Positions 19,401 through 35,881 are shown, counted from the stretch's first letter. The stretch: DNA of 64,000 nucleotides from an uncultured Candidatus Saccharibacteria bacterium (GCA_964392315.1 CAYMOT010000001.1:285498-349497), one strand, 5' to 3'. Numbers and translations are program-made. Notes: generated by a model from the letters alone, not told the origin.

Positions 19401-20200
19401 CAGGCACGCAGTTAACGCTTCGAACCTTCCACGTGTCTGGTGCAGCGCAAAAGGGTGAAATAATCACCCAAGGTTTGCCACGCGCAGAAGAGCTTATGGA
19501 GACCAGAACTCCGAAACAGCCAGCAGTACTTTCTGACATATCAGGTAAAGTTTCCGTCCTTGAAGAAGGAGACGATTACATCGTCACCGTCACTGCTGTG
19601 GAAAAAATTGATGGAAAAAGCGTGAAAGATGAACGAGATTACCGTGTGCCGAACACCATGGAGCTTTCAGTGAAAGATAATGATGTTGTAGAGGCAGGAG
19701 ATCGGTTAACTGTTGGAAGCATGGATCTTGATGAAGTACTCGAGTTCAAAGGACTATTGACAGCGCAATTGTATCTTCTCAAAGAATTACAACGTGTGTA
19801 CAAAAACCAAGGTGTCGTTATTCATGATAAACACATAGAAATTATTATCAGAAAGATGAGCAGTCGTCTTAAGGTAGTTGATCCCGGAACAAGTGATTTC
19901 TTACCTGGCGAGTTTATCACCCAAGACGCTTTTACACAGGCACAGCAAAAAATAAAAGAGAAGGGTGGCACACCTATTAAGGCAAATAAAACTCTTTTGG
20001 GTATTTCCCGCACTTCGTTGCTCACGGACTCTTGGCTCTCTGCAGCTTCATTTATCCAAACAACGAATGTGCTCTCTCAGGCTGCGGTGAATTGGCGTCC
20101 ACAAGTTGACCGCCTCAAGGGCTTGAAGGAAAACGTGATCATCGGAAAACTCATTCCCACCAAAGAGTCGATTGTTACCCATGACGAAATGCATGAATAG
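16427..20200 (+). CDS. rpoC: DNA-directed RNA polymerase beta' subunit
   Basis: A 1257-aa protein with the zinc motif [23 protein letters not shown], the catalytic [14 protein letters not shown] loop, and bridge-helix and trigger-loop segments. Its start overlaps the rpoB stop. Confidence 0.97.
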
Positions 20201-20208
20201 TGTATAAT
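20201..20208 (+). promoter_or_regulatory. Extended -10 element TGTATAAT, 9 nt upstream of the rpsL ATG
   Basis: tgtataat spans 20201-20208, immediately after the rpoC stop. No Shine-Dalgarno sequence precedes the rpsL ATG at 20218. Confidence 0.3.
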
Positions 20209-20217
20209 GAGCACGCT

Positions 20218-20631
20218 ATGCCGACCATTAACCAACTCGTCCGATATGGACGTATGCAAAAGAATAAAAAAGTAAAGTCAACCGCGTTGCGGGGCACATG
20301 GAATTCGTTACACAGGAAAACCACACCAACAAAAAACCCCTTCAAGCGTGGTGTCTGTATTCAAGTAAAGACGATGACGCCAAAGAAGCCAAACTCAGCT
20401 TTGCGAAAGGTTGCACGTGTTCGCTTGAGTAATCGAAAAGAGATCACCGCATATATTCAAGGTGAAGGTCACAACTTACAGGAGCATAGTATCGTACTCG
20501 TGCGAGGAGGGCGTGTGCGTGACCTTCCGGGAGTAAAATATCATATTGTCCGGGGGGCACTAGATACAGGTGGTGTAGAAAAGCGAGTCTCTAGTCGAAG
20601 TAAATATGGTGCAAAACGCGCAAAAAAGTAA
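20218..20631 (+). CDS. rpsL: 30S ribosomal protein S12, with an insertion of about 11 aa in the N-terminal extension
   Basis: The sequence reads MPTINQLVR ... [28 protein letters not shown] ... [35 protein letters not shown]. The start was moved from the track's 20200 to ATG 20218. Confidence 0.93.
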
Positions 20632-20649
20632 AGTTAATACATATCTTCT

Positions 20650-21117
20650 ATGAGAACAAAACGAGCAAAAATAAGAACAATCAAGCCTGACCAGAAGTAT
20701 AATTCTGCAGTAGTTTCTCGCTTTATTAACATGGTTATGCTCGATGGTAAGAAAACAGTGGCTGCTGATATCGTCTATAAATCACTTGAGAAAGCGGCTG
20801 AGAAGGTTAATGCAGATCCACAAATTGTATTAGACGAAGTGCTAAAGAACGTGTCCCCAACCCTCGAAGTTCGTTCGCGCCGAGTTGGAGGGGCGACGTA
20901 CCAGGTTCCCGCGCCAGTCAGAGTAGAAAGAAAACAAATGCTCTCATTCCGTTGGCTTATCAATGCAGCACGTGCTCGTAGTGGCAGTGATATGGTGACA
21001 CGCCTGTCGCAAGAATTGGTGGACGCGTATAACCAAGAAGGGGAAGCTATTAAAATGAAGAACAATGTACATAAAATGGCAGAGGCAAATCGCGCGTTTG
21101 CACATTTCAAGTGGTAA
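20650..21117 (+). CDS. rpsG: 30S ribosomal protein S7
   Basis: It contains VSPTLEVRSRRVGGATYQVP ... NNVHKMAEANRAFAHFKW. Confidence 0.93.
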   Translation: MRTKRAKIRTIKPDQKYNSAVVSRFINMVMLDGKKTVAADIVYKSLEKAAEKVNADPQIVLDEVLKNVSPTLEVRSRRVGGATYQVPAPVRVERKQMLSFRWLINAARARSGSDMVTRLSQELVDAYNQEGEAIKMKNNVHKMAEANRAFAHFKW

Positions 21118-21129
21118 AAGTAACACTAT

Positions 21130-23232
21130 ATGAGTCAGGAAACCAAACACTATCCAATTGAAAAAATCAGAAATATTGGCATTATTGCCCATATAGACGC
21201 AGGTAAGACAACCAGTACCGAGCGGGTACTCTATTACACCGGCCGAACATATAAGATCGGTGAAGTGCACGAAGGTCAGGCAACTATGGACTGGATGGAG
21301 CAAGAACAGGAGCGCGGTATTACAATCACCTCGGCAGCCACTACAACCTTTTGGAACGACCACCGTATTAACATTATTGATACCCCAGGCCACCTTGATT
21401 TTACTGCAGAGGTAGAGCGCTCGCTCAGAGTCCTTGATGGTGCGGTCATGATCTTTGATGCGGAAGAGGGTGTGCAGTCCCAGACTGAAACGGTCTCCAG
21501 GCAGGCAGATAAGTATGGGGTGCCGCGTATACTCTTTGTCAATAAAATGGACAAGCTAGGAGCAAATTACTTTAACACCCTCGAGGAAATTCGTCAGCGT
21601 TTGGGAGTCCCGGCGGTCGCGTACAACATTCCGATTGGTGCTGAAAATGATTTTATTGGTGTGGTTGATTTGCTGACGCAGGAAGCTATTGTCTGGAAAG
21701 ACGAGACCCTTGGTGCGGAATTTGAAAAAAGAGAGATCCCGGATGATTTAAAAGAAAAAGCAGTAGCGTTGCGTGAAGAGCTTGTTGAAAAAATTGCAGA
21801 ACAAGATGATGCACTTTTGGAAAAGTATCTTGGTGGAGAGGAAATTGCCCTTGATGAACTGAAGAAAGTAATGCGAAAGGCAGTAGTAAACCTACAGATT
21901 GTGCCGGTACTTGCTGGATCATCACTCCGGAATAAAGGGGTGCAACCGCTTTTGGATGCTGTGGTCGAGTATCTACCTTCTCCTGCGGATGTCCCATCGG
22001 TTACCGGTATTGTCCCCGGTACCGAGGAGACTGTTACACGAACTCCAGATGTAAACGAGCCCTTTACGGCGCTTGTGTTTAAAGTACAAACTGATCCTTA
22101 TGTAGGAAGACTTGCATATTTCCGTGTGTATGCAGGTAAAGTCTCAGTCGGCGATACTGTACTTAACGTGAATCGCGACGATTCTCAACGGATGGGAAGA
22201 ATGGTGCTGATGCATGCTAATCACCGCGAAGAAGTAAGAGATTTGCAGGCAGGAGAAATTGGTGCGGCTGTTGGCCTAAAAGATGCGTCAACCGGCCAGA
22301 CATTATGCGATCCAAACCACCCAGTGCACTTGGAAGAGATAACATTTCCGGAACCAGTTATCTCGTTATCGATTGAACCTCAATCCAAGTCAGATCGTGA
22401 TAAGCTTGGAGAGTCTCTCAGGAAGTTACAGGAGGAAGATCCCACTTTTGTGTTGCGTACGGATGAAGACACTGGTCAAGTGCTCATTTCAGGCATGGGT
22501 GAGCTTCATCTAGAGATCATGGTTGATCGATTAAAGCGTGAATTTGGCGTGGGGGTTAATGTTGGTCGGCCGCAAGTTGCCTACCGCGAAACTATTGCCG
22601 CTACCATTGATAAACATGAAGGTAAATATATTAAACAAAGTGGTGGACGCGGACAATATGGACACGTGGTTATTAAGATTGAGCCACTTGAGCGGGGTAC
22701 GGGACGTGAATTTGTTAATGCGATCAAAGGTGGAGCAATTCCAAATGAATATATACCCGCGGTAGAAAAAGGTATTTATGAGGCACTCGACAATGGAGTC
22801 ATTGCTGGATATCCACTGACTGATGTTAAGGTAACCCTCTTTGACGGTTCGTACCATGATGTTGACTCGTCTGAAATTGCATTTAAGATTGCTGGCTCCA
22901 TGGCCGCACGTGAAGCATCAAAATTAGCGAAGCCCACATTGTTAGAACCAATTATGCAACTTGAAGTTGTCACGCCTGAAGAATTTATGGGAGATGTCAT
23001 GGGAGATCTTGGTAGCAAACGGGGTCAGGTAGAGCAAAGCACTCCTCGAGGGAATGCGCGTATCATTGATGCAAAGGTGCCGCTCGCAGAAATGTTTGGC
23101 TACGCAACATCACTGCGTAGCATGACGCAAGGGCGTGCAACCTTTAGTATGGTACCATCACACTATCAGGAAGTGCCGGTTCGGATAGCTGAAGAAGTCG
23201 TAGCAGGAATGAAGCGTGAAGCAGCGGGCTAA
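21130..23232 (+). CDS. fusA: Elongation factor G
   Basis: G-domain motifs are present ([18 protein letters not shown]), the length is 700 aa and EF-G domains II to V are present. Confidence 0.96.
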
Positions 23233-23330
23233 TGAGTATTATAAAGCAATAGATAAATGACGAATCTGCATATTGGTCATTTGATTATTGGTTTATTTGC
23301 AACTATTCTTTAGAAGGGTGGTGAAAATAC

Positions 23331-24515
23331 ATGGCAAAAGAAACATTTGTACGCGACAAGGAACACGTAAATATTGGAACAATCGGTCACGTTGATCATG
23401 GTAAAACAACGTTGACTGCTTCTATTACCAAAGTGTTGCACGATATGGGCATGTCTGAATACGTGCCTTTCGAAAACATTGATAACTCTCCAGAAGAACG
23501 AGAGCGAGGTATCACCATTAACATTACTCACGTTGAGTATTCAACTGAGAAGCGCCACTATGCGCACGTCGATGCACCTGGTCACGAAGACTACATTAAG
23601 AACATGATCACTGGTGCTGCACAAATGGACGGTGCGATTTTGGTTGTTTCCGCAGCTGATGGTCCGATGCCACAAACTCGTGAACATATTCTACTTGCAC
23701 GTCAGGTTAATGTTCCTAAACTTGTTGTATTTATGAACAAGATGGACATGGTTGATGATCCTGAGCTTGCCGATTTGGTTGAAGTAGAGATTCGTGAACT
23801 TCTCAGCAAGTATGAGTATCCTGGGGATGAGGTTCCAATTATTCGTGGCTCCGCACTAAAAGCGCTCGAAGGTGATGCAGAAGCTGCAGAATCAATAAAG
23901 AAGCTGATGCAGGCAGTCGATGATTATATTGATATGCCGGTTCGTGAGGTTGATAAACCATTCTTGATGCCGGTCGAAGACGTGTTCTCTATTGAAGGAC
24001 GTGGAACTGTTGCGACTGGCCGTATTGAGACTGGTGTTGTAAAGGTTGGAGAAGAAATTGAAATCGTTGGTATTGTTGATGACAAAAAGAAAACAGTGGT
24101 CACTGGTGTTGAAATGTTTAGAAAAACACTCGAACAAGGACAAGCTGGTGACAACGTTGGTATCCTACTTCGTGGTATTGGCCATGAAGATATTCAACGA
24201 GGACAAGTACTTTCCAAACCCGGTTCGGTCAACCCGCACACGGAATTTGAAGCTGAAGTATATATTCTCAAGCAAGAGGAAGGTGGACGTCACACTCCAT
24301 TCTTTAGTGGATACCGTCCACAGTTTTACTTGAGAACGACTGACGTTACGGGCGAGGTTACCTTGGCTGAAGGAACCGAAATGGTAATGCCTGGGGATAA
24401 TGTGACATTTAAGGTCAAACTGATTCAACCAGTTGCTCTTAATGACGGACTACGCTTTGCGATTCGTGAAGGTGGGCACACAGTTGGTGCAGGAGTTATT
24501 ACCAAGGTAGTGTAA
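23331..24515 (+). CDS. tuf: Elongation factor Tu
   Basis: Motifs [14 protein letters not shown] and NKMD are present and the length is 394 aa. A strong ribosome-binding site (GAAGGGTGGTGA) lies upstream. Confidence 0.97.
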
Positions 24516-24602
24516 TACAGTGGAATCATACCCAGCACCTTTGCATGGGGTTGTTCGATTGAGAGGCAGCATGCCACGAACAACTCCATCAAAAGGTTCT
24601 GG

Positions 24603-24630
24603 TTGACAAATCAACAAATCAGTATAGAAT
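24603..24630 (+). promoter_or_regulatory. Near-consensus sigma70 promoter: TTGACA, 16-nt spacer, TAGAAT, upstream of rpsJ
   Basis: ttgaca at 24603-24608 and tagaat at 24625-24630, about 46 nt before the rpsJ ATG. Confidence 0.5.
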
Positions 24631-24676
24631 GGTGGAGAAATTACCAATTACACAATAATTGGTTAATTAATCACTA

Positions 24677-24985
24677 ATGCCAAAAGGACGCATCCGGGTA
24701 CGTTTAAAAAGCTTTGACTACAAAGTCTTAGATCAAGCAGCAATTGAAATTGTTGATACCGCACTTAGAACGGGAGCTCAAGTAGTTGGGCCAATCCCAT
24801 TGCCCGTTAAGCGTGAACTCTTTACGGTCATTCGTGGTCCCCATATCGATAAAAAAAGTCAAGAAAGTTTTGAACGCCGTACCCATAAGCGTATTGTCGA
24901 TATACATGAACCCACTGCACAAACCCTTGATCAGTTATCAAACCTCGATCTTCCTGCTGGTGTCTCTGTAGAAATTAAAATGTAA
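24677..24985 (+). CDS. rpsJ: 30S ribosomal protein S10
   Basis: The sequence reads [19 protein letters not shown] ... [39 protein letters not shown]. Confidence 0.95.
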
Positions 24986-25062
24986 GCACAGTCTTTGGTA
25001 GTTCCCACAAGATACCCATTTATAAGAATCGCTATTCTCCCTAGTATATGTGCTGAAATGTC

Positions 25063-26526
25063 TTGTGTGCTATTATTGCGTGCATGATTAGCGTAAAGCA
25101 TCTTTATAAGTCAATGCCAACGGGACCTTTGTTAGAAGATATCTCATTTGTTATAGGAAATAAGGAAAAGGTTGGCCTGTTGGGGCAAAACGGGTGTGGA
25201 AAGTCAACCTTACTCAAAGTTTTGATAGGAGTGGAAGACTATGACTCTGGAACTGTGTCTATTGAGAACGAAGTGGTAGCGTATTTACCGCAGCTCTTTG
25301 AGCAACCAGAAAGTAGCGTGAGAGAGTTCGGTAGGCTTTTATTGCAGGACAAAGCGTATGAATTTGAAAGACAACTCTCTCGACTAGGGTTGCCCGAAGC
25401 TTCTTGGGATATTGCAATTTCAAACTTAAGCAGTGGCCAGAGAATGCGTGTGAAACTTGCAGAACTCTTGGTTGATAACCCTTCTGTTCTCATACTCGAT
25501 GAGCCAACAAATCATCTAGATATAGAAGGGATTCAATGGATTGAGGCTTTTGTGAAATCATTTGGTGGGATCGTTATACTTGTTTCCCATGATCGGGCAT
25601 TCTTAGACGCCGTATGTACTCATATTTTTGAAATTGACGAGAAGCAGCTACTGATATTTCCTGGTAATTACACTGACTATAAAACACTGAAACAACAGTG
25701 GATCGAGGAACGAGAAAAGACCTACAAGCGTCAGGAGCAAAAACGGAAGCAGTTGGCTACGCTTATAGAAAACGCCAGGAGGTTGCAGGGTGGTAAAGCA
25801 CGAGGTAAGGCGGTCAGGGCTGCCAAGAAGCGGATGGAACGAGAAGTTCTGCGTAGCGAGGTGGGCAGGTATAAACTTGATGTGATTACGCAGATTTCTT
25901 TCTCCGGTACAACTCACACAGGCAAGTTAATGCTTCAAGTAGATGGCATACAAAAGAGCTTTGAGAAGGCCAACGTGCTGAATGATGTTTCTTTTGAATT
26001 GCGTGGCAATGAAAGAGCATGGCTATATGGTGCAAACGGTGCCGGCAAATCTACGCTGTTGAATCTCATTTCTGGAATAGTAGTACCGACTGAAGGGGAA
26101 GTGGTTATTGGTCACAATGTGAGGTGGGGATACTTCCGACAGAATCAAGAACATTTACCATTTGATGAGACGGTCGAAACGTTTTTTCGCAATCAAGCTG
26201 GCATCTCAGACTATCGACTATACGGTATATTGAAAAAATATTTGTTCCCGCAGGAATACCTGTCACGGAAAATCGGGACATTAAGCCCGGGAGAGCGTGC
26301 GCGGCTGGGTTTTGCCGTATTTACCCAACAAAACCTGGATTTGCTCATTCTTGATGAACCGACCAATCATTTGGATATATGGACTAAGGAAGCAATAGAA
26401 GGGTCACTGCGAGAATTTGAAGGAGGGATTTTATTGGTGTCTCATGATCGGTATTTCGTTGAGAATGTAGGTGTGGATACAGTATATCACCTCAAAAATG
26501 GTACGCTTACAAAATTGCTCACTTGA
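25063..26526 (+). CDS. ABC-F family ATPase: two ABC cassettes and no TM domain (EttA/Uup-like)
   Basis: There are two Walker A motifs (GQNGCGKST; GANGAGKST) and two signature/Walker B sets (LSSGQRMRV, ILDEPTNHLD; LSPGERARL, ILDEPTNHLD), with a charged KRQEQKRKQ linker between the cassettes. The likely start is ATG 25087. Confidence 0.75.
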   Translation: MCAIIACMISVKHLYKSMPTGPLLEDISFVIGNKEKVGLLGQNGCGKSTLLKVLIGVEDYDSGTVSIENEVVAYLPQLFEQPESSVREFGRLLLQDKAYEFERQLSRLGLPEASWDIAISNLSSGQRMRVKLAELLVDNPSVLILDEPTNHLDIEGIQWIEAFVKSFGGIVILVSHDRAFLDAVCTHIFEIDEKQLLIFPGNYTDYKTLKQQWIEEREKTYKRQEQKRKQLATLIENARRLQGGKARGKAVRAAKKRMEREVLRSEVGRYKLDVITQISFSGTTHTGKLMLQVDGIQKSFEKANVLNDVSFELRGNERAWLYGANGAGKSTLLNLISGIVVPTEGEVVIGHNVRWGYFRQNQEHLPFDETVETFFRNQAGISDYRLYGILKKYLFPQEYLSRKIGTLSPGERARLGFAVFTQQNLDLLILDEPTNHLDIWTKEAIEGSLREFEGGILLVSHDRYFVENVGVDTVYHLKNGTLTKLLT

Positions 26527-26580
26527 CATCACGCTTAATGTAAAATATAAGCATATATATATCATCAGGGAGGTGAGACA

Positions 26581-27459
26581 ATGAGAAACAATCATAAACT
26601 ATGTTTGTGGCGAAAGACAACGCGCTACCTTCTCTGTATTCTTACCGTTAACGTCTCCCTCCTTGGTGTATTTGTTAATACTGCATCGGCGGATACCGTG
26701 ATTTTTCAAGATGATTTTGAGGATACTACGTTAAATGCTTGGATTATCCAGCCGACGGAGACATGGACCAACAGTGTATCCAATGCCCATTCAGGTACCC
26801 GAAAGGCACGTGTGTCAGGAAATGTGGAAGGGGCAGTACTCCGAAGAGATCTTTCAACCACCGGATTTACTAATGTAACAGTGACGTTTTGGCACGATAC
26901 AAATACCGGTTGGGACTCACAAGATCTGCTTGAATTGCAGTGGACGTTAAATGGGGGAAGTACATGGAATACGGTGGTGACGCTAGATGGAGATGATCTG
27001 ACACCATCTATAGAAGGTGCCGCTGAGTGGATAGAGCATACAGTAGTGTTGGGTACGGAAGCAAGCAATGCCGCTACTTTAGGAATTCGGTTTGTTGCAA
27101 CAATTAGTGGCGCAAGCGACATTATGTACATAGATGATGTGCAAGTAAGAGGAACAAGTACTACGCCGGTGACGCCAACTCCGACCGTAACGGTGACACC
27201 AACTCCACCTATTGCGGTGACTCCAACGCAGTCCGTAACGCCGACTATTCAGCCAACTACAATGCCAACACCTACTCCTACAAAAGCACCTACACCAACA
27301 GTTGCACCTACGGTGATGGCAACCCCGACAGCTACGCCAACGCCATTACCTGATAACGAGAATCAGGGATCATCGTTGACGTTGATTAAGCAACTGCTAA
27401 AGTTGTTGCTTAGACTATTGTTCACACGTACATTCAGTCTATTCTGGCACCTTACATAA
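26581..27459 (+). CDS. Secreted protein with a beta-rich N-terminal domain, a Pro/Thr-rich linker and a hydrophobic C-terminus
   Basis: An N-terminal signal-like helix is followed by a roughly 150-aa Trp/Thr-rich domain, then a PT repeat tract (TPTPTVTVTPTPPIAVTPTQSVTPTIQPTTMPTPTPTKAPTPTVAPTV...). The C-terminus reads LLKLLLRLLF. Confidence 0.4.
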   Translation: MRNNHKLCLWRKTTRYLLCILTVNVSLLGVFVNTASADTVIFQDDFEDTTLNAWIIQPTETWTNSVSNAHSGTRKARVSGNVEGAVLRRDLSTTGFTNVTVTFWHDTNTGWDSQDLLELQWTLNGGSTWNTVVTLDGDDLTPSIEGAAEWIEHTVVLGTEASNAATLGIRFVATISGASDIMYIDDVQVRGTSTTPVTPTPTVTVTPTPPIAVTPTQSVTPTIQPTTMPTPTPTKAPTPTVAPTVMATPTATPTPLPDNENQGSSLTLIKQLLKLLLRLLFTRTFSLFWHLT

Positions 27460-27477
27460 AAGTTTTAGCTGTCCGTG

Positions 27478-27508
27478 AAGCCCTCCTGACATTACGTCGG
27501 AGGGCTTC
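27478..27508 (+). terminator. Strong stem-loop just 3' of the PT-rich gene. It has no T-tract and is followed by TGTATAAT.
   Basis: GAAGCCCTCC(T)GAC pairs with GTCGGAGGGCTTC, a stem of about 13 bp. An extended -10-like tgtataat lies at 27509-27516. Confidence 0.3.
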
Positions 27509-27883
27509 TGTATAATAGGACGATACAGGATTTATTGATTTTGGCGATATTAGATCAACCGATGTCTATTACGATCTGGCACATTTTCAGATATATGATC
27601 CTGTTTTCTTCCCGTTCTTGTTACATGGGTATAATTCAAAAGTCACTTTGCCTACTGATTCAAACATGAGACTTGCAATAACAAAATTCTTTATAGCGAT
27701 TCATGGAGTTGCTTAGACTGCAGTTCACCAGAAATACTCTCACGATCAGTTACTGAGACACCCGAACTGTATGGCACTAAAAGAAGGAATGTTCTTATAA
27801 AATAAGTAGATGAAAGGCTTTTGTTGATTGGAGACTTACCTTAAGCCATGCATATCTTAGTAAGATTAAAAAAATGGTACTGG

Positions 27884-28345
27884 TTATATAAGCGGTTGTA
27901 CCACATATCCTAGTACATCAAAATCAGGATGCCATATTTCTAACATATCATTCGAGAATTCTCGGATCCAGGGCGATGTATCTAACCACTTACGCTTGAA
28001 GTCGGCGAAATATGGAATTTCATAATCTCCGCATCCAACTTGTAACCTATATGGATCAATAATCCGTATTCCCACGTACTTTACAGCATGCTCCCGAATC
28101 TCTTTGTTTACTTTCACATACGAGCTTGTCTCGGAATTGAAAGGTGCAGGTGATCCCATGTGATTTATAAGAGTAAGCAAATATTCGTATTCGTCAGGGT
28201 AGTGAGCAAACAACTTAAGCGTTGTAATTGGGAGTTTGGTTTGAAACAGTTGTTGCGACATTGTATCCAACTTTATTGTTATGTACGTAATAGCTTCGTT
28301 GAAACTTTTTTCACTCGTAATAGGGCTAAATCTATAGAAGTTCAT
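27884..28345 (-). CDS. Hypothetical protein of 153 aa with no recognisable motifs
   Basis: It is the only long ORF in this interval and the only minus-strand gene inside the ribosomal superoperon region. Its function cannot be assigned from sequence. Confidence 0.3.
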   Translation of the reverse strand: MNFYRFSPITSEKSFNEAITYITIKLDTMSQQLFQTKLPITTLKLFAHYPDEYEYLLTLINHMGSPAPFNSETSSYVKVNKEIREHAVKYVGIRIIDPYRLQVGCGDYEIPYFADFKRKWLDTSPWIREFSNDMLEIWHPDFDVLGYVVQPLI

Positions 28346-28544
28346 AATGCCTTTAAATTATAACCTAAGGTAACAATGTGGCAAAAAATCTGTGTTTTGG
28401 TCTAGCACCGGTATTAATTGCTTGCGTATATAACAGTGCTTTGTTACAATTGGCCCCAGCAATGAGAATACGAGCAATACGGTATTCAAATAGCTAATGT
28501 TGCATGGGGCTTATAAACGCAACCTCTTAGGATAAAAAAGAGAA

Positions 28545-28572
28545 AGCGGGGTAAGTACCCCGTTATTTTTTT
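28545..28572 (+). terminator. Rho-independent terminator-like or attenuator hairpin immediately upstream of rplC
   Basis: GCGGGGT / ACCCCGT stem of about 7-8 bp with an AAGT loop, followed by ATTTTTTT. It abuts the rplC start. Confidence 0.45.
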
Positions 28573-28576
28573 GCAT

Positions 28577-29044
28577 ATGCACAAACAACTTACCGGTACA
28601 AAAAAGCACATGACCCAACTCTTTAAAGATGATGGAACAGTAGTTCCGGTAACTGTCATAAAAGTTACTGAGGCAGATGATTGGGAAGCGATAACGATAG
28701 GGTCGTCTGTGGTGGTCTCAGGAACCTCTAAGGGGAAAGGATTTGCTGGTGCGGTAAAGCGGTATAGTTTTGCAGGTGGGCCAAAGACTCATGGACAGAG
28801 TGACCGTCAGCGTGCGGTAGGGTCAATTGGTGCCGGAACAGACCCAGGAAGAGTATGGAAAGGGCAGAAAATGCCAGGGCGAATGGGAGCGAAGCGTATT
28901 ACGGTTAAAGGGTTACGTGTAGAGCAAATTGATCTAGAACACGGACTAATATATTTGAAAGGTGCGGTGCCTGGTGGACCAAAAAGTGAGCTTACGATTA
29001 CATTTGAGGCAGTCGATGACGCAAAGGAGAGCGTCAATTTATAA
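28577..29044 (+). CDS. rplC: 50S ribosomal protein L3, reduced form
   Basis: It has KKHMTQLF ... VPVTVIKV ... SGTSKGKGFAGAVKRYSF ... KMPGRMGAKRITV ... IYLKGAVPGG. It lacks about 50 aa of the central region found in E. coli L3. The track start 28571 is a TTG; ATG 28577 is preferred. Confidence 0.85.
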   Translation: MHKQLTGTKKHMTQLFKDDGTVVPVTVIKVTEADDWEAITIGSSVVVSGTSKGKGFAGAVKRYSFAGGPKTHGQSDRQRAVGSIGAGTDPGRVWKGQKMPGRMGAKRITVKGLRVEQIDLEHGLIYLKGAVPGGPKSELTITFEAVDDAKESVNL

Positions 29045-29049
29045 CACAT

Positions 29050-29679
29050 ATGGCAGATATAAAAATGCTTTCAATTGATGGAGCTGATGCGGGAACGGTT
29101 GCGGTCCCTGATGAGGTTTTTGCAGTGCCCGTTAATCATGATTTAATTGCTCAGGCAATTTATGTACGGCTACAAAATGCACGCTTAGCAACACGTAAAA
29201 CTAAAGATCGAGGAGAAGTTCGTGGTGGTGGCGCTAAGCCTTGGCGTCAAAAAGGTACTGGCCGTGCACGACATGGAAGTACGCGTTCACCTATTTGGAG
29301 AGGCGGCGGCCATGTGCATGCACTTCGCCCTGGAGTTCATAATGTTACGATTTCAAAAGCGATGCGAAGAGGAGCTTTGGTGTCTTCACTGTCAGGCAAA
29401 CATGCTCAAGGTGATGTGTTGGTTGTGCAAGGTCTGGCATATGAAAAACCACAGACAAAGACTGCCAAGAAAACGCTTGCAGCAATAACTGATAAGCAGA
29501 AAGCGCTTTTGGTTACAGCAGACAAAGATACTGCTGTTAAAAAATCTTTTCAGAATATACCCGGTACTAAGGTACGTGAGGCGCGCTTACTGCATGCATA
29601 TGAAATAGTCTGGAGTGATGTGGTCATTTTTACAAAAGAAGGGTTGGACGCTTTCTTAGGAGGAGTTGTCAAAGATTAA
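29050..29679 (+). CDS. rplD: 50S ribosomal protein L4
   Basis: It contains GGGAKPWRQKGTGRARHGSTRSPIWRGGG. Confidence 0.92.
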   Translation: MADIKMLSIDGADAGTVAVPDEVFAVPVNHDLIAQAIYVRLQNARLATRKTKDRGEVRGGGAKPWRQKGTGRARHGSTRSPIWRGGGHVHALRPGVHNVTISKAMRRGALVSSLSGKHAQGDVLVVQGLAYEKPQTKTAKKTLAAITDKQKALLVTADKDTAVKKSFQNIPGTKVREARLLHAYEIVWSDVVIFTKEGLDAFLGGVVKD

Positions 29680-29680
29680 T

Positions 29681-30013
29681 ATGGAACTTGCACAAATCTT
29701 AAAAAAACCAATAGTAACCGAAAAGTCATTGAACCGGATGAAGGACAACCATTATTCATTCGAAGTCCATTCGCAGGCGACAAAGTTTGATGTAGCACGT
29801 GCGGTAGGGTCACTCTTTAATGTTACGGTGTACAAAGTCAAAATGCTTAATCGGAAAGGGAAGCTCAAGAGGGTGTTTCGCAAACGGCAAATGACACAGA
29901 CAGCGGACAAAAAAATAGCAATTGTGACAATTGATCCGAAACAATCAATTGATATCTTTTCGGAATTTAATACAGAAGCGGTTGAGGAGAATTTATCTGA
30001 TTCAAAGAAATAG
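29681..30013 (+). CDS. rplW: 50S ribosomal protein L23
   Basis: It has ILKKPIVTEKS ... YSFEVHSQATKFDVARAV. The start was moved to ATG 29681, just after the rplD stop. Confidence 0.88.
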   Translation: MELAQILKKPIVTEKSLNRMKDNHYSFEVHSQATKFDVARAVGSLFNVTVYKVKMLNRKGKLKRVFRKRQMTQTADKKIAIVTIDPKQSIDIFSEFNTEAVEENLSDSKK

Positions 30014-30016
30014 AAT

Positions 30017-30865
30017 ATGGCACGCACAAATCTTATAAAAGTTAAGCGATATAAACCAACAAGTGCAGGAATTCGGCATCAGGTTTCTCTGGACGCGAGC
30101 GCAGTCTTGACGTCGAAACGGCCCGAAAAGTCCCTGGTCCAGCGTTTGCCCAAAAAATCTGGACGATCACGTGGTAAAATCACCGTGCGTCACCGCGGGG
30201 GAGGCCATAAGCGTCTGTATCGAGTAATAGATTTTAAGAGAGACAAATACGATGCACCTGCAGAAGTAATTGCGATCGAATATGACCCGAATCGCTCAGC
30301 GCACTTAGCACTGCTTGCGTATGAGGACGGAGAGCGTCGATATATTTTGTGGCCTGAAGGGCTTTCTGTTGGAGATACTGTTATTGCCGCAAAAAAAGTG
30401 TCAGTAAATCCTGGAAATGCGTCACCCCTTAAGTCTATTCCTTTGGGAACATTGGTTCATAATATTGAAACAGTGCCTGGCAAAGGCGGCCAACTTGTTC
30501 GGTCGGCAGGGGCAGGAGCTACACTTATGGGGCGTGACAAAGGGCTCGCACAGCTTCGAATGCCGAGTGGCGAGATACGGTTAATTCCTGAGGAGGCATG
30601 GGCTACTATTGGCACACTTGGTAATGCAGAGCATGGTCTGATCAAATTAGGTAAGGCGGGAAGACGACGCAATTTGGGTTGGCGACCTGCGGTTAGAGGA
30701 ACTGCTATGTCTGCGGGGGATCATCCGCATGGAGGAGGAGAAGGGCGGACTGGTGCAGGGCGTCCTTCAAAGACAGTATATGGTAAGCCTGCACATGGTA
30801 AGAAAACGCGCAAACCAAAGAATAAAACAAATCGACTTATTATTGCTCGTCGCAATAAAAGGTAA
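30017..30865 (+). CDS. rplB: 50S ribosomal protein L2
   Basis: It contains [13 protein letters not shown] and [14 protein letters not shown]. Confidence 0.95.
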
Positions 30866-30872
30866 GTAATTT

Positions 30873-31163
30873 ATGGCAAGAAGTACAAAAAAAGGTCCGT
30901 ACGTGGACGAAAAGCTAGTAAAAAAAATACAACAGCTTAACGAAGCGGGAATAAAAGAAGTCATAAAAACCTGGAGCAGGGAAAGTGCAATTAGTCCTGA
31001 AATGGTAAACCACACACTCGATATCCATCAAGGAATACGGTTTGTGCGCGTGTACATACAAGAAAGCATGGTTGGGCATAAGCTCGGCGAGTTTGCAAAG
31101 ACAAGAAAGTTTCTTGCACATAGTAAGAAAGGTGTACAGAAACCAACAGGTACAGGAGAATAA
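30873..31163 (+). CDS. rpsS: 30S ribosomal protein S19
   Basis: It has [15 protein letters not shown] ... [19 protein letters not shown]. Confidence 0.93.
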
Positions 31164-31169
31164 CATCAT

Positions 31170-31547
31170 ATGGCACGTCAAATTATTGCAGTTACCAAAC
31201 ATATACGACAGTCACCGCAGAAGATGCGTGTTGTGGCACGAAGAGTAGCCAAGCTTCCATTGGATAAAGCAGTTGCAGTGCTTGAGCAAACTCCCAAGAG
31301 AGCAGCGGAGCCAATATTAAAGACTTTGGCGTCAGCTAAGGCGAATGCAATACATAACTTTGATATACCAAAAGAAAAGCTATTTATTAAAGAAATTCAG
31401 GTGGGAAGAGGTATGATACGGCGTTCTCCAGAATTTCGCGCACGAGGGCGATTGAATTGGCGCCGGAGTGCTAGTTCTAATGTACGGGTAGTATTAGAGG
31501 AAACTGAAAATATAGATCAATCACCAAAGAAAGAAACACCCAAATAA
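31170..31547 (+). CDS. rplV: 50S ribosomal protein L22
   Basis: The position in the operon and the sequence (VAVLEQTPKRAAEPILKTLASAKANA) support the call. Confidence 0.88.
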   Translation: MARQIIAVTKHIRQSPQKMRVVARRVAKLPLDKAVAVLEQTPKRAAEPILKTLASAKANAIHNFDIPKEKLFIKEIQVGRGMIRRSPEFRARGRLNWRRSASSNVRVVLEETENIDQSPKKETPK

Positions 31548-31587
31548 ATAGATGTTTCTGTAATTATTTTTTGGTAATTAGTTGCGT

Positions 31588-32214
31588 ATGGGACAAAGTA
31601 TTAATCCGGTAGGTTACCGGCTTTCTAAAAACAAAAACTGGAATTCTGTTTGGCATAATGACCAGAACTATGTGGATTTACTTCACGAGGACTTGGCAAT
31701 TAGAAACTATTTGAATACAGAATTATCGCTTGCAGGGCTTGACCGGGTTGTCATAAAGAGAAGTATCAATCAGGTTGATATTGATGTCTATGTCGCAAAA
31801 CCGGGTATGGTTATAGGACGTGGAGGTACACGCGTAGAAGAGATAAAGAAAGGATTAAATGTATTAGCAACGGGAAAGATGAATCTCAATGTGTTCGAAG
31901 TTGCTCATCCGGATTTATCAGCGAGGGCGGTTGCAGACGATATTGCATATAAGATTGAGCGAAGAATGAGCTATAAGCGTGTAGTTGCTAAATCAATGCA
32001 AAAGACAATGGATGCGGGGGCTCAAGGTATTAAGGTATATGTGAGTGGCCGAGTTGGGGGAACTGCCATTGCTCGCACTGAGAAAAAGGTATTGGGTTCA
32101 GTGCCCACGTCTACCATGGATGCCGATATAAGCTATTCTCAAGCGACAGCAAAGACTAAATTCGGAACGATTGGTATAAAAGTATGGATTGCACGAAACA
32201 GTAAAAACGAGTAA
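31588..32214 (+). CDS. rpsC: 30S ribosomal protein S3
   Basis: It begins MGQSINPVGYRLSKNKNWNSVWH and has a KH domain. The start is the ATG at 31588; the track start is a TTG at 31582. Confidence 0.93.
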   Translation: MGQSINPVGYRLSKNKNWNSVWHNDQNYVDLLHEDLAIRNYLNTELSLAGLDRVVIKRSINQVDIDVYVAKPGMVIGRGGTRVEEIKKGLNVLATGKMNLNVFEVAHPDLSARAVADDIAYKIERRMSYKRVVAKSMQKTMDAGAQGIKVYVSGRVGGTAIARTEKKVLGSVPTSTMDADISYSQATAKTKFGTIGIKVWIARNSKNE

Positions 32215-32231
32215 TAGAAAGGTAAAAACGT

Positions 32232-32651
32232 ATGCTAGAACCAAAGAAACTTAAATATCGACGAATTTTTAGAGGAAAGAATAAGGGAAAAAGTACCAGG
32301 GGAAGTGAAGTGTCCTTTGGCGAATTTGGTTTGCAGTCTAAGACACGAGGATTTATTTCAAGCCGCGAAATAGAGGCTGCACGACGGGCAATAAGGAACC
32401 ACGCAAGTCGCGGTGGTAAGTTGTGGATTCGAGTATTTCCCCACAAGCCAATAACAAGCAAAGGTGGCGAGGGGAGAATGGGTGGAGGAAAAGGTCCGTT
32501 GGATCATTATGCGGTAGTTGTCAAGCCTGGTAGAATGCTGTTTGAATTGTCAGGATTGCCAGAAGAGGTTGCGCGAGAAGCATTCCGATTAGCAGGACAT
32601 AAGTTATCAGTGGGAACCGCATTTGTCAAAAAAGGGGAATACTATGAGTAA
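32232..32651 (+). CDS. rplP: 50S ribosomal protein L16
   Basis: It has MLEPKKLKYRRIFRGK ... IRVFPHKPITSKGGEGRMGGGKG. Confidence 0.93.
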   Translation: MLEPKKLKYRRIFRGKNKGKSTRGSEVSFGEFGLQSKTRGFISSREIEAARRAIRNHASRGGKLWIRVFPHKPITSKGGEGRMGGGKGPLDHYAVVVKPGRMLFELSGLPEEVAREAFRLAGHKLSVGTAFVKKGEYYE

Positions 32652-32868
32652 ACAATCAACGTTAATGTCTGAATTACGTACAAAAACAAAAGGGGAATTA
32701 CAAGCAATGTTGCAAGATGAGCGTGACGCACTTGCGCAGCTTCGTATGAATGTTGCGGTAGGGAAAGAATCAGAAACGCATAAATTGCGCAAAGCACGTG
32801 TAGCTATCGCCCGCATTCAAACTGTATTACGCACGTTGTCGTCTCAGGACACAACTGCGCAGAGTTAA
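32644..32868 (+). CDS. rpmC: 50S ribosomal protein L29
   Basis: It has [27 protein letters not shown]. The start is at ATG 32644, overlapping the rplP stop. Confidence 0.85.
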
Positions 32869-32869
32869 T

Positions 32870-33121
32870 ATGTCAAAAAAACAGCTTATAGGTACAGTGG
32901 TATCAACACATATGCATAATACCGTGGTCGTGAAAGTAGACCAGGTGGTAAAGCATGCACTCTACGAAAAAAGGTTTGTGCGTAGCAAAAAATATTATGC
33001 ACACACGGAACAAGACGAAATAAACGTTGGTGATACTGTGCGAATTGAAGAAACCCGTCCGCTATCAAAACAGAAACGTTGGCATGTAGTAGAACGTATC
33101 ACGAAGAATGATAACGTTTAG
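32870..33121 (+). CDS. rpsQ: 30S ribosomal protein S17
   Basis: It has [17 protein letters not shown] ... [29 protein letters not shown]. Confidence 0.92.
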
Positions 33122-33127
33122 GCATCT

Positions 33128-33496
33128 ATGATTCAAATTGGTACACAATTACAAGTAGCTGATAATTCGGGGGCAAAAAGAGTGCAATGTTTATCGATCC
33201 CTGGAGCGTCCAAAAAGAAATATGCATATCTTGGTGACACCATATCAGTCGTGGTGAAAGGAGCGATTCCTCATGGTGCAGTAAAAGATCATGAGATTGC
33301 TCGTGCACTTGTCGTCAGGACAAAAAAGGAAAGACGAAGGAATGATGGAACATACATAAGATTTGATGATAATGCAGCTGTACTTATCGACAAAAATGGT
33401 GTGCCATTGGGAACACGAGTTTTTGGCCCAATTGCCAAAGAAGTAAAAGACCGCGGGTTTTCTAAGATAGCATCACTCGCGAAAGAGGTTTTATGA
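33128..33496 (+). CDS. rplN: 50S ribosomal protein L14
   Basis: It begins [24 protein letters not shown]. Confidence 0.95.
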
Positions 33497-33804
33497 AAAT
33501 CAAAGCAGGAGATACTGTACAAATCATTGCTGGTAAGGATAAAGGAAAGAGCGGAAAAGTTCTGAAGTCATTTCCTAAGGAGGAACGCGTATTAGTCGAA
33601 GGGGCCAATATAGTAAAGCGGCATAAACGCGCACGGCAACGAGGACAAGAACATGGCATTTTGCAAAAGCCTGCACCGCTTCATGTGAGCAATGTCATGA
33701 TTGTTGACCCGGCATCTAAGGTGCGAACTCGAGTGGCCAATGATGCAACGACCGAGAAGAAGAAACGTGTTTCAAAGAAGACTCGAAAATCAGTAGATAA
33801 ATAA
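33493..33804 (+). CDS. rplX: 50S ribosomal protein L24
   Basis: It begins [24 protein letters not shown], a KOW motif. Confidence 0.92.
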
Positions 33805-33806
33805 AT

Positions 33807-34361: not shown

Positions 34362-34364
34362 CAT

Positions 34365-34547
34365 ATGCCACAAAAGTCATGGATATTACGAAATGAAAAG
34401 AAAAAGCGTCCGGTAAGTAAACGTAATCGTTGCAGAGTGTGTGGGAATCCACGTGGCTTCATGGGTAAATTCGGAATGTGTCGAAAATGCTTTCGCGAGC
34501 ATGCCCTCAGGGGTAATCTTCCGGGAGTAATAAAAGCATCATGGTAA
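34365..34547 (+). CDS. rpsZ: 30S ribosomal protein S14, type Z (zinc-binding short form)
   Basis: A 60-aa protein containing [23 protein letters not shown]. Confidence 0.92.
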
Positions 34548-34942: not shown

Positions 34943-34969
34943 AGTGTGTCGATCTACCTAATAAAACAT

Positions 34970-35509: not shown

Positions 35510-35519
35510 CTATACGAAT

Positions 35520-35879: not shown

Positions 35880-35881
35880 GT

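What the first reader, a model, noticed from the sequence alone, without database searches (positions are those of the whole stretch)
24986..28576. The rpsJ-rplC junction of the S10 operon is split by a 3.6 kb insert
In almost all bacteria rplC follows rpsJ directly. Here rpsJ ends at 24985 and rplC starts only at 28577. In between lie four things:
- an ABC-F translation-factor-type ATPase;
- a PT-rich secreted protein;
- a 424-nt stretch with no ORF;
- an unknown 153-aa gene on the opposite strand, the only minus-strand gene within the 24.7-43.1 kb ribosomal block, followed by a terminator hairpin abutting rplC.
The ABC-F gene is thematically coherent because ABC-F proteins bind the ribosomal E site, but this location is atypical. 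Together with the terminator, it implies that rplC-to-rplO are transcribed separately from rpsJ.
Basis: partly seen in the sequence, partly recalled or inferred. Interest (0 to 1): 0.65.

Follow-up and report, generated by a model that had tools for sequence, protein, structure and literature searches.

The report
Split S10 operon in WWE3 bacteria
In this tiny-genome (CPR, WWE3-type) bacterium the ribosomal gene rplC is cut off from rpsJ by an old, lineage-wide rearrangement rather than a recent insert; the gap holds a conserved ribosome-binding ATPase gene and a surface-protein gene, and rplC has its own promoter and a previously undescribed folded RNA leader.

Summary
In detail: every coordinate checks out.

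- **Not a recent insert or misassembly.** An independent run gave an identical 3,883-nt contig.
- **Conserved core.** Six related lineages (S10 88-95% identical) carry the same ABC-F gene between rpsJ and rplC. Five also carry the PT-rich protein gene.
- **Variable segment.** The stretch just upstream of rplC differs between relatives.
  - The 424-nt 'ORF-free' stretch is the decayed 3' end of an APH kinase gene that is intact in relatives.
  - The 153-aa minus-strand gene belongs to a CPR-restricted family with a VOC (YecM-like) fold.
- **The split is wider than this clade.** In three more distant WWE3 lineages rplC is not near rpsJ at all.
- **The hairpin is not the minus gene's terminator.** It ends a conserved ~120-nt rplC leader that sits behind a conserved promoter (-35 TTGCGT, 17 nt, TGTTACAAT). 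The leader has four hairpins, a U7 tract four bases before the ATG, and a near-isoenergetic alternative fold. It has no Rfam match.
- **Best reading.** rplC-rplO is a separate, attenuator-controlled operon. The ABC-F is a native translation factor expressed with rpsJ.

Interest is moderate.

The parts
24603..24630 (+). Promoter-like site upstream of rpsJ (TTGACA, 16 nt, TAGAAT)
   Evidence: Consensus scan, 11 of 12 matches. Not tested for conservation in relatives.
24677..24985 (+). rpsJ (ribosomal protein S10), last ribosomal gene of the rpoBC-rpsLG-fusA-tuf-rpsJ run
   Evidence: Pfam and NCBIfam S10 matches. It is 88-95% identical to S10 of loci L081-L088.
25084..26526 (+). ABC-F ATPase, 480 aa (the ORF list starts it at the TTG at 25063). 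Two ABC domains plus the inter-domain linker; no arm domain and no C-terminal extension.
   Evidence: ABC_tran matched twice and ABC_tran_Xtn once. NF000355 scores 410.9 against a cut-off of 380. Nearest solved structures are EttA, YbiT, PoxtA and VmlR. Orthologues sit between rpsJ and rplC in L081-L083 and L086-L088; L124 carries the same gene upstream of rplC, but its 5' end and any rpsJ lie beyond the locus.
26581..27459 (+). PT-rich surface protein, 292 aa: signal peptide, beta-sandwich domain (CBM/MAM-like), Pro/Thr linker, hydrophobic C-terminus
   Evidence: No Pfam or NCBIfam hit. Homologues of 42-62% identity lie next to the ABC-F gene in L081/82, L083, L086, L087 and L124. A low-confidence model (pLDDT 57) matches CBM and MAM domains.
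27477..27508 (+). Strong hairpin (10-bp G+C-rich stem) right after the PT-rich gene; probable end of the rpsJ-ABC-F-PT transcription unit. It has no U tract.
   Evidence: Fold of 27465-27520 gives -24.3 kcal/mol. L087 has an analogous hairpin after its PT-rich gene.
27519..27791 (+). Remnant of an APH-family phosphotransferase gene: about the last 90 of ~319 codons, with an internal stop at 27714-27716 and no start codon
   Evidence: Frame-3 translation. Pfam APH E 0.002, below the gathering score. It is 55-62% identical to residues 220-283 of the intact plus-strand APH genes of L122 and L124. tblastn extends the match to residue 308.
27884..28345 (-). 153-aa protein of a CPR-restricted family with a VOC (YecM/glyoxalase-like) fold
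   Evidence: 52 homologues, all 'hypothetical', named sources Patescibacteria and Dojkabacteria. It is 65% identical to the minus-strand 152-aa gene of L124. The AlphaFold2 model has pLDDT 96.5. Best Foldseek match is 1k4n (TMq 0.67), followed by glyoxalases, extradiol dioxygenases and methylmalonyl-CoA epimerases.
28357..28384 (-). Promoter-like site for the 153-aa gene (TTGCCA, 16 nt, TATAAT), back to back with the rplC promoter
   Evidence: Consensus scan, 11 of 12 matches.
28422..28450 (+). rplC promoter: -35 TTGCGT (28422-27), 17-nt spacer, extended -10 TGTTACAAT (28442-50)
   Evidence: The same hexamers and the exact 17-nt spacing occur in W, L081, L087, L088 and L122-126, and in the distant WWE3 loci L127-L131.
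28456..28576 (+). rplC 5' leader, about 120 nt. P1 28466-87, P2 28499-523 (GUUGC/GCAAC), P3 28524-42 (CUCUU/AAGAG), P4 28545-64 (terminator-like), U7 28566-72.
   Evidence: Sequence blocks are invariant in five distinct sequences. Each of the four segments folds as a hairpin in all five, and P1 uses different sequences in each. Folding z-scores are -2.1 to -3.2. An alternative pairing of the P2 loop with the P4 loop and 3' arm is near-isoenergetic with the terminator fold. No Rfam match. The motif occurs only upstream of rplC in the loci held.
28577..29044 (+). rplC (uL3), short form of 155 aa that lacks the internal region; first gene of the rplC-rplO-secY run
   Evidence: TIGR03625 scores 150.4 against a cut-off of 142.9, in two stretches. 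L3 proteins of 140-157 aa are typical of WWE3 relatives.

Best explanation
The window comes from a CPR bacterium of the WWE3 (Katanobacteria) type. In this lineage the classical S10 operon is broken after its first gene.

**Transcription units**
- rpsJ stays at the end of the rpoBC-rpsLG-fusA-tuf cluster.
- rplC heads its own unit (rplC to rplO and secY). That unit is driven by a conserved promoter with an extended -10 box.
- Behind the promoter lies a ~120-nt four-hairpin leader. Its last hairpin plus U7 looks like an intrinsic terminator and sits four bases before the start codon.

**How the leader most likely works (inferred)**
- Transcripts from the promoter must read through this hairpin to express 20-odd essential genes.
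- The leader can also adopt a near-isoenergetic alternative fold in which the P2 loop pairs with the terminator's loop and 3' arm.
- The most likely function is therefore an attenuator. It would set operon output by feedback from a ribosomal protein encoded downstream, L4 or L3 by analogy with the E. coli S10 leader.

**What fills the gap**
- In the window's subclade the rpsJ-rplC gap has been colonised by two vertically inherited genes. They are transcribed after rpsJ and end at the hairpin at 27477-27508.
- The first is a minimal ABC-F ATPase. It is most likely a housekeeping E-site translation factor whose expression is thereby tied to rpsJ and tuf.
- The second is a secreted or anchored PT-rich beta-sandwich protein.
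- Between that pair and the rplC promoter lies a fast-turnover segment. Relatives carry up to six accessory genes there: an RNA methylase, two APH kinases, an AlkZ-like glycosylase, a VOC-fold protein and an HD_3 hydrolase.
- This genome has been reduced to the VOC-fold gene and a dead APH stub.

**Shown:** gene identities, conservation of the arrangement, the promoter and leader conservation, and the pseudogene.

**Inferred:** the transcription units, attenuation, the regulatory ligand, and the ABC-F's housekeeping role.
For: - **Lineage.** The nearest ABC-F and L3 homologues are named WWE3 or Dojkabacteria. uL30 is absent between rpsE and rplO.
- **Arrangement in relatives**:
  - L087: rpsJ, ABC-F, PT, rplC.
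  - L088: rpsJ, ABC-F, HD, rplC.
  - L081/82: rpsJ, PT, ABC-F, GDSL, rplC.
  - L083, L086, L124: rpsJ, (790 aa), ABC-F, PT, MTase, APH(-), APH(+), AlkZ, 152 aa(-), HD_3(-), rplC.
  - L122: APH(+), HD_3(-), rplC.
- **Vertical descent.** The rank order of identity is the same for S10, L3 and ABC-F.
- **Independent assembly.** A 3,883-nt contig from another run is 100% identical.
- **Native composition**.
- **Distant WWE3 genomes.** ABC-F lies beside mutL (L084). rplC lies behind smpB and other genes with no rpsJ within 7-8 kb. These genomes still have the TTGnnn, 17 nt, TGnTAnAAT promoter and a leader hairpin with a U run.
- **Leader.** Conserved blocks, four hairpins, different P1 sequences that still pair, a P4 register shift kept paired, and z-scores of -2.1 to -3.2. 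The terminator and alternative folds lie within about 4 kcal/mol of each other. The P2-loop to P4 duplex is -8.6 to -10.8 kcal/mol, reached by 2-17% of shuffled loops.
- **Leader conservation outruns the protein.** The leader is 100% identical between W and L122 although their L3 proteins are 94% identical.
- **ABC-F type.** It is closest to EttA and YbiT rather than Msr, Lsa or Vga, and its linker has EttA-like length.
- **Co-transcription in a relative.** In L087 only 18 nt separate rpsJ from ABC-F.
Against: - There are no transcript data, so promoters, terminators and attenuation are all predictions.
- Only five distinct leader sequences (four independent lineages) are available. P2 and most of P4 are invariant and so carry no covariation signal.
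- MAFFT alignments could not carry P1 and P3, so helix support rests on per-sequence folds and hand pairing.
- The alternative-fold statistic is weak for L087 (17% of shuffles).
- The hairpin could simply insulate rplC from upstream read-through, or act in translation initiation. There is no Shine-Dalgarno sequence between it and the ATG.
- The ABC-F passes the NCBIfam 'ribosomal protection-like' cut-off and lacks the EttA arm, so a resistance role is not excluded.
- Whether the ancestral WWE3 state was 'linked with a gap' or 'fully separated' is not resolved.
Confidence: 0.7

Rival explanations
1. The junction is a drug-defence island. The ABC-F would be a ribosome-protection (ARE-type) factor. 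The variable genes next to it (APH kinases, RNA methylase, AlkZ-like crosslink glycosylase, VOC-fold protein, esterase) would detoxify or tolerate antibiotics and genotoxins made by neighbours or hosts. The island would be anchored at the ribosomal operon.
For: - NF000355 'ribosomal protection-like ABC-F' scores 410.9 against a cut-off of 380.
- The protein is 480 aa without an arm domain or C-terminal domain, like Msr and Lsa.
- Relatives carry two APH genes, a UPF0020 methylase, an AlkZ-like gene and the VOC-fold gene in the same gap.
- From background knowledge, an ABC-F plus phosphotransferase pairing recalls msr(E)-mph(E).
Against: - All specific ARE models fall far below their cut-offs: Vga 272 against 725, Msr 257 against 680, Lsa 234 against 750.
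- The protein is closer to EttA and YbiT than to Msr, Lsa or Vga, and the linker is not extended.
- The ABC-F is a core WWE3 gene, present elsewhere in the genome of distant relatives.
- The accessory genes are being lost here, not kept.
- Every family named also has housekeeping members.
Confidence: 0.2
2. The 3.6 kb is a recent horizontally acquired or mobile insert that happened to land between rpsJ and rplC.
For: - The region just upstream of rplC has lower G+C (0.37-0.38) than the window as a whole (0.435).
- Gene content there differs between relatives.
Against: - ABC-F and the PT-rich gene are at this position in six lineages whose ABC-F is only 58-70% identical.
- G+C and GC3 of both genes are typical for the window.
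- There is no integrase or transposase and there are no flanking direct or inverted repeats.
- The low-G+C parts are a pseudogene and intergenic DNA.
Confidence: 0.04
3. The junction is an assembly artefact (chimeric join).
For: Many MAG contigs break just upstream of rpsJ, inside tuf. This neighbourhood is therefore assembly-prone in general.
Against: - A contig from a different sequencing run (SRR7051044) matches window 25018-28900 at 100% over 3,883 nt.
- The same gene order is assembled independently in several other samples.
Confidence: 0.01
4. The hairpin with U7 in front of rplC is a plain, constitutive terminator or insulator, or an mRNA-stabilising or translation-initiation structure, rather than a regulated attenuator. 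The conserved upstream blocks would be promoter-proximal elements without a switching role.
For: - Hairpin and U run are the only leader features shared with the distant WWE3 lineages.
- The region between hairpin and ATG is U-rich, with no Shine-Dalgarno sequence. Many genes here lack one too.
- Covariation evidence for the alternative fold is thin.
Against: - The hairpin lies downstream of the conserved promoter, so a constitutive terminator would block an essential operon.
- The tetraloop UAAG and the complementary CUUA in the P2 loop are conserved, which is unusual for a simple terminator.
- About 70 nt of leader upstream of the hairpin is also conserved.
Confidence: 0.25

Closest known systems
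E. coli S10 operon leader (L4-mediated attenuation and translational control)
   Same: A leader of more than 100 nt with several hairpins in front of the L3-L4-L23-L2 gene run. The last hairpin is an intrinsic-terminator-like stem with a U run close to the first start codon. The logic of feedback by an encoded ribosomal protein fits.
   Different: It lies upstream of rplC, not rpsJ. There is no sequence or Rfam similarity. The ligand is unknown. According to published surveys (background knowledge), the E. coli leader is confined to Gammaproteobacteria.
Archaeal gene order (S10 with the EF genes, L3 heading its own operon) and the Archaeoglobi L4 r-leader candidate upstream of rplC (Eckert and Weinberg 2020, PMC7247131)
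   Same: rpsJ stays with tuf, and rplC is the first gene of a separate operon. A candidate leader directly upstream of rplC-rplD-rplW-rplB has been described there.
   Different: This is a bacterium, and the arrangement arose independently. The RNA motif is unrelated by Rfam search. The archaeal gene order is cited from background knowledge and was not tested here.
Housekeeping bacterial ABC-F translation factors (EttA, YbiT/YkpA, Uup/YfmR)
   Same: Two ABC domains joined by a linker of EttA-like length. The best solved-structure matches are EttA (2.6e-73) and YbiT (1.5e-68).
   Different: It lacks the EttA arm and the Uup C-terminal domain. It scores far below the EttA, Uup and YbiT family cut-offs. 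It is encoded inside a ribosomal gene cluster, and two literature searches found no description of that placement.
ARE ABC-F ribosomal protection proteins (Msr, Vga, Lsa, Sal, OptrA/PoxtA)
   Same: Compact architecture of about 480-500 aa. It passes the generic NF000355 'ribosomal protection-like' model. APH kinase genes are neighbours in relatives.
   Different: It fails every specific ARE model cut-off. It is chromosomal, vertically inherited and conserved across a CPR clade, and it shows no extended linker.
YecM (PDB 1k4n) and the VOC superfamily
   Same: The 153-aa protein's high-confidence model matches the paired beta-alpha-beta-beta-beta fold. The family has invariant His and Glu residues.
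   Different: Sequence identity is 14% and there is no Pfam match. The family is restricted to CPR bacteria. Substrate and metal are unknown.

Membership tests
ABC-F ATPase | Two ABC nucleotide-binding domains in one soluble polypeptide | tested here: met
   PF00005 matches twice, E 5.4e-51. The 480 aa are fully covered by the two domains plus the linker.
ABC-F ATPase | Inter-domain linker (PtIM, ABC_tran_Xtn) | tested here: met
   PF12848 at residues 189-260, 32.8 bits against a cut-off of 25.9.
ABC-F ATPase | Binds the ribosomal E site | not testable with these tools
   Needs biochemistry or cryo-EM.
ARE-type (antibiotic resistance) ABC-F | Score above a curated resistance-family cut-off (Vga, Msr, Lsa, Sal, OptrA, CplR) | tested here: not met
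   Scores of 226-272 bits against cut-offs of 680-1450. Only the generic NF000355 model passes (410.9 against 380).
ARE-type (antibiotic resistance) ABC-F | Extended linker (antibiotic resistance domain) reaching the peptidyl transferase centre | tested here: inconclusive
   The alignment to M. tuberculosis EttA shows a linker about 8 residues longer than EttA's. PoxtA and OptrA also have short linkers, so length alone does not decide.
EttA | Family score and arm subdomain in NBD1 | tested here: not met
   296.7 bits against cut-offs of 599 and 806. About 47 residues of the NBD1 insert are missing in the EttA alignment.
E. coli-type S10 leader | Match to a described RNA family | tested here: not met
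   No Rfam family reaches its gathering score. The best E-value-mode hit is an unrelated sRNA at 23 bits against a gathering score of 80.
E. coli-type S10 leader | Lies upstream of rpsJ | tested here: not met
   It lies upstream of rplC. The rpsJ 5' region is short and unrelated.
Ribosomal-protein leader or attenuator (general class) | Conserved structured 5' UTR of a ribosomal-protein operon, between promoter and first gene | tested here: met
   Promoter plus a ~120-nt leader conserved in five distinct sequences, with four hairpins in each.
Ribosomal-protein leader or attenuator (general class) | Terminator and antiterminator alternative folds | tested here: inconclusive
   The two folds lie within about 4 kcal/mol in all five sequences. 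P2-loop to P4 complementarity beats 83-98% of shuffled loops. There are too few sequences for firm covariation.
Ribosomal-protein leader or attenuator (general class) | Bound by a protein encoded in the operon | not testable with these tools
   Needs binding or termination assays with L4, L3 and other candidates.
APH phosphotransferase (PF01636) | Complete kinase-like domain | tested here: not met
   Only profile positions 189-220 of 239 match, at 18.4 bits against a cut-off of 23.2. The fragment aligns to residues 220-308 of intact 316-319-aa homologues and carries an internal stop. It is a pseudogene.
VOC (glyoxalase / bleomycin-resistance / dioxygenase) superfamily | Paired beta-alpha-beta-beta-beta modules forming a metal-binding cleft | tested here: met
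   The model has pLDDT 96.5. Foldseek gives 1k4n at TMq 0.67, probability 1.00, then many VOC enzymes. This tests fold only. The invariant His48, Glu52 and Glu136 are candidate ligands and are not verified.
Mobile element or genomic island | Integrase or transposase, flanking repeats, foreign composition | tested here: not met
   No such genes. No flanking repeats. G+C and GC3 are native.

The most novel reading that the evidence does not exclude
WWE3 bacteria may have replaced the bacterial S10-operon layout with an archaeal-like one, controlled by a new class of rplC leader. This would be a terminator/antiterminator switch that senses a ribosomal protein. The freed rpsJ-rplC junction may then have become a dedicated slot for ribosome-directed defence: an ABC-F that protects or rescues the reduced CPR ribosome, next to kinases, a methylase and detoxifying enzymes. 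That would make it a chromosomal, vertically inherited antibiotic-tolerance locus in an episymbiotic lineage.
Probability: 0.15. Interest if true: 0.65.

Novelty: new member of a known kind. Interest (0 to 1): 0.42.

Why it matters
- Gene order around rpsJ-rplC is among the most conserved in bacteria and is used as a phylogenetic and binning anchor. A whole CPR lineage in which the operon is split, with its own promoter and leader, shows how such a cluster comes apart. It also warns against treating the gap as a misassembly.
- The rplC leader is a concrete, testable candidate for ribosomal-protein feedback control in CPR bacteria, where no regulatory RNA of this kind has been described to my knowledge.
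- The conserved placement of a minimal ABC-F between rpsJ and rplC suggests stoichiometric co-expression of an E-site factor with ribosome components. These organisms have reduced ribosomes: no uL30 in this window, a short uL3, and, per the literature, no bL9 in WWE3.
- None of this overturns current understanding. It is a lineage-specific variant.

Tried and rejected
- **Metagenome scan with S10.** It returned only relatives with S10 identity of 69% or less, so it gave no new clade members.
- **Rfam, in gathering and E-value modes.** Nothing relevant.
- **MAFFT and RNAalifold on the leaders.** Only P2 and P4 were recovered, because P1 and P3 differ in length and sequence. I therefore did not build a covariance model or use the pair-counting tool. 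I used per-segment folds and constrained folds instead. My first constrained-fold run had a register error for the terminator and was redone.
- **Leaderless-mRNA idea for rplC.** I considered a -10 box inside the U run and dropped it. There is no matching -35, and a far better conserved promoter lies 130 nt upstream.
- **Single-sequence structure prediction of the PT-rich domain.** It gave pLDDT 57, so the CBM/MAM-like matches are only a hint.
- **Literature searches.** Searches for ABC-F genes in S10 operons or in CPR found nothing.

Full report
**1. The observation**

The ORF map reproduces every coordinate in the finding.
- rpsJ is 24677-24985.
- A 487-codon ORF runs from 25063. Its real start is the ATG at 25084, giving 480 aa. 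This matches the independent gene call P0001 and the N-termini of relatives.
- A 292-codon ORF is at 26581-27459.
- No ORF of 60 aa or more lies in 27460-27883.
- A 153-codon ORF is at 27884-28345 on the minus strand.
- rplC starts at 28577.

Pfam and NCBIfam confirm S10, a short L3 and an ABC-F. They find nothing for the other two proteins. The scan finds a hairpin at 28545-64 with a U run on the plus strand.

Adjacency of rpsJ and rplC is the rule in the comparison material:
- nearly all of the 80 genome loci fetched with L3, mostly Chloroflexota;
- most of the 33 other CPR metagenome loci fetched with S10.

**2. Whose genome**

- The closest homologues of the ABC-F (50-69% identity) and of L3 carry the names candidate division WWE3, Dojkabacteria or Patescibacteria.
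- rpsE is followed directly by rplO, with no uL30.
- uL3 is the short form that lacks the internal region. Both features are known CPR traits (Tsurumaki et al. 2022, PMC9297842).

**3. Not a misassembly and not a recent insert**

A contig from another sequencing run is 100% identical to window 25018-28900.

Contexts of ABC-F and L3 homologues from independent samples show the same theme:

| Locus | Gene order |
|---|---|
| L087 | rpsJ, ABC-F, PT protein, rplC |
| L088 | rpsJ, ABC-F, HD protein, rplC |
| L081/82 | rpsJ, PT protein, ABC-F, GDSL esterase, rplC |
| L083, L086, L124 (together) | rpsJ, (790 aa), ABC-F, PT protein, UPF0020 methylase, APH(-), APH(+), AlkZ-like, 152 aa(-), HD_3(-), rplC |
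| L122 (L3 94% identical) | APH(+), HD_3(-), rplC |

- S10 is 88-95% identical across these loci, the ABC-F 58-70%, and the PT protein's N-terminal domain 42-62%.
- The rank order of identities is the same for S10, L3 and ABC-F, as expected for vertical descent.
- G+C and GC3 of the ABC-F gene (0.434, 0.418) and the PT gene (0.464, 0.396) match the window (0.435). Only the pseudogene and intergenic DNA are lower.
- There are no flanking repeats and no mobility genes.

**4. The smaller pieces**

*The 424-nt stretch.* Frame 3 reads DDTGFIDFGD...YYDLAH. This is a weak APH match. It is 55-62% identical to residues 220-283 of the intact plus-strand APH genes of L122 and L124. With an internal stop, the match extends to residue 308. 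The stretch is the stub of a deleted gene.

*The 153-aa protein.*
- It is 65% identical to the minus-strand 152-aa gene of L124.
- It belongs to a family of about 50 'hypothetical' proteins from Patescibacteria.
- A high-confidence model (pLDDT 96.5) has a VOC fold. The nearest structure is YecM (1k4n), followed by glyoxalases, extradiol dioxygenases and methylmalonyl-CoA epimerases.

*The PT-rich protein.* It has a signal peptide, a beta-sandwich domain, a Pro/Thr linker and a hydrophobic tail. A low-confidence model resembles CBM and MAM modules. A surface glycan-binding or adhesion role is plausible but weakly supported.

**5. The split is wider than the insert**

- In three more distant WWE3 lineages rplC follows unrelated genes (smpB, a ~570-aa protein, a bPH_2 protein). 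No rpsJ lies within 7-8 kb. These are L127/128 (GCA_013335095.1), L129/130 (GCA_020429745.1) and L131.
- In GCA_013335095.1 the ABC-F orthologue sits beside mutL.
- Uncoupling of rpsJ and rplC is therefore a WWE3 trait. ABC-F in the gap marks one subclade.

**6. The hairpin belongs to a conserved rplC leader**

The hairpin is on the promoter side of the minus-strand gene, so it cannot terminate that gene.

*Promoter.* Aligning the DNA upstream of rplC from W, L081, L087, L088 and L124 shows a promoter with -35 TTGCGT or TTGCTA, exactly 17 nt, and TGnTACAAT. In the window it is at 28422-28450. The distant WWE3 lineages have the same layout.

*Leader.* The conserved ~120-nt leader contains, in order:
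- P1, a hairpin built from different sequences in each lineage;
- P2, the invariant GUUGC...GCAAC stem;
- P3, CCUCU paired to a purine run, with variable inner stems;
- P4, GCGGGG-UAAG(U)-CCCCGU, followed by a U run and then AUG.

Supporting points:
- The leaders fold better than shuffles, with z-scores of -2.1 to -3.2.
- The leader of L122 is 100% identical to the window's, although L3 is 94% identical and the DNA upstream of 28419 is unrelated.
- The motif occurs only upstream of rplC among all loci held.
- No Rfam family matches.

**7. Likely mechanism**

- Transcription from a conserved promoter runs straight into a terminator-like hairpin in front of an essential operon. That argues for regulated read-through.
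- The conserved tetraloop UAAG and 3' arm CCC(C) of P4 are complementary to GGGnCUUA in the P2 loop.
- The resulting alternative fold lies within about 4 kcal/mol of the terminator fold in all five sequences.
- The loop-to-arm duplex (-8.6 to -10.8 kcal/mol) is matched by 2-4% of shuffled loops in four sequences and 17% in the fifth.
- The fourth loop base co-varies with the base after UAAG(U): G with C, C with G, U with A. I established this by hand inspection.
- I therefore propose a terminator/antiterminator attenuator under feedback from a ribosomal protein, L4 or L3 by analogy with E. coli. This is inference and the sample is small.

The upstream unit probably runs rpsJ, ABC-F, PT gene.
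- No terminator is predicted between rpsJ and the ABC-F gene, and only 18 nt separate them in L087.
- The unit would end at the -24 kcal/mol hairpin at 27477-27508.
- The 153-aa gene has its own promoter-like site at 28357-84.

**8. What kind of ABC-F**

- The best solved relatives are EttA, YbiT, PoxtA, VmlR and Uup.
- The linker is about EttA length and the arm domain is absent.
- All specific resistance models fail their cut-offs. The generic 'ribosomal protection-like' model passes.
- It is a core WWE3 gene, so I favour a housekeeping E-site factor co-expressed with rpsJ.
- A resistance reading is not excluded. It gains some colour from the APH, methylase, AlkZ-like and VOC-fold neighbours in relatives.
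- Its constant pairing with a Pro/Thr-rich gene is noted. ABC-F proteins are reported to help with hard-to-translate sequences (abstracts). This link was not tested.

**9. Comparison and novelty**

- The layout parallels archaea, where S10 sits with the EF genes and L3 heads its own operon (background knowledge).
- A candidate L4 leader upstream of rplC is described for Archaeoglobi (PMC7247131).
- The E. coli S10 leader is the closest mechanistic analogue, but it is unrelated in sequence and position.
- Searches found no report of an ABC-F gene in an S10 operon or of this leader.

**Verdict.** This is a real, lineage-specific operon split. It comes with a conserved resident ABC-F gene and a new candidate ribosomal leader. 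It is a new member of known kinds and of moderate interest.

Noticed in passing
window 28577-29044: uL3 is only 155 aa and lacks about 55 internal residues. Homologues of 140-157 aa are typical of WWE3 relatives. The internal deletion of uL3 in some CPR bacteria is already reported (PMC9297842).
   Followed up: partly
window 35882-36842: rpsE ends at 36409 and rplO starts at 36411, so there is no uL30 gene. This is the known CPR hallmark.
   Followed up: no
L127 6890-7000; L129 7800-8000; L131 7890-8000: Distant WWE3 lineages have a different rplC leader, with a shared block CUCGGCGUAUGCA in L129 and L131. The promoter layout and the terminal hairpin plus U run are the same. In L129 the hairpin lies about 45 nt before the annotated start, and a short ORF lies in between.
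   Followed up: partly
L045, L054, L061, L039 (Anaerolineaceae / Longilinea MAGs): A few Chloroflexota also have rpsJ and rplC apart. The gaps are 8.7 kb in L045 and 2.7 kb in L039. L054 and L061 have no rpsJ within 10 kb and 6.8 kb upstream. The junction may be a recurrent break point outside CPR too.
   Followed up: no
L001-L080: Dozens of MAG contigs end 500-1,000 nt upstream of rplC, inside or just after tuf. This is probably an assembly break at duplicated tuf genes. It is a caution for synteny work on this region.
   Followed up: no
window 27405-27425 and 27708-27728: A 21-nt direct repeat (18 of 21 identical) lies at the 3' end of the PT-rich gene and at the end of the APH stub. It may be chance, or a trace of the deletion or recombination that removed the intervening genes.
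   Followed up: no
L124 1385-6818; L083 10355-12930: The fullest version of the variable segment holds a UPF0020 RNA methylase, two divergent APH genes on opposite strands, an AlkZ-like DNA glycosylase, the VOC-fold gene and an HD_3 hydrolase. All belong to families with known roles in drug or damage tolerance.
   Followed up: partly
window, upstream of most genes in 20000-37000: Few genes have a recognisable Shine-Dalgarno sequence; rpsJ, the ABC-F gene, rplC and rplD have none. The PT-rich gene has a strong GGAGG and rplW has AGGAGG.
   Followed up: no
window 6791-6862 and 53396-53469, minus strand: Two tRNA genes are the only Rfam matches at gathering score in the 64-kb window.
   Followed up: no
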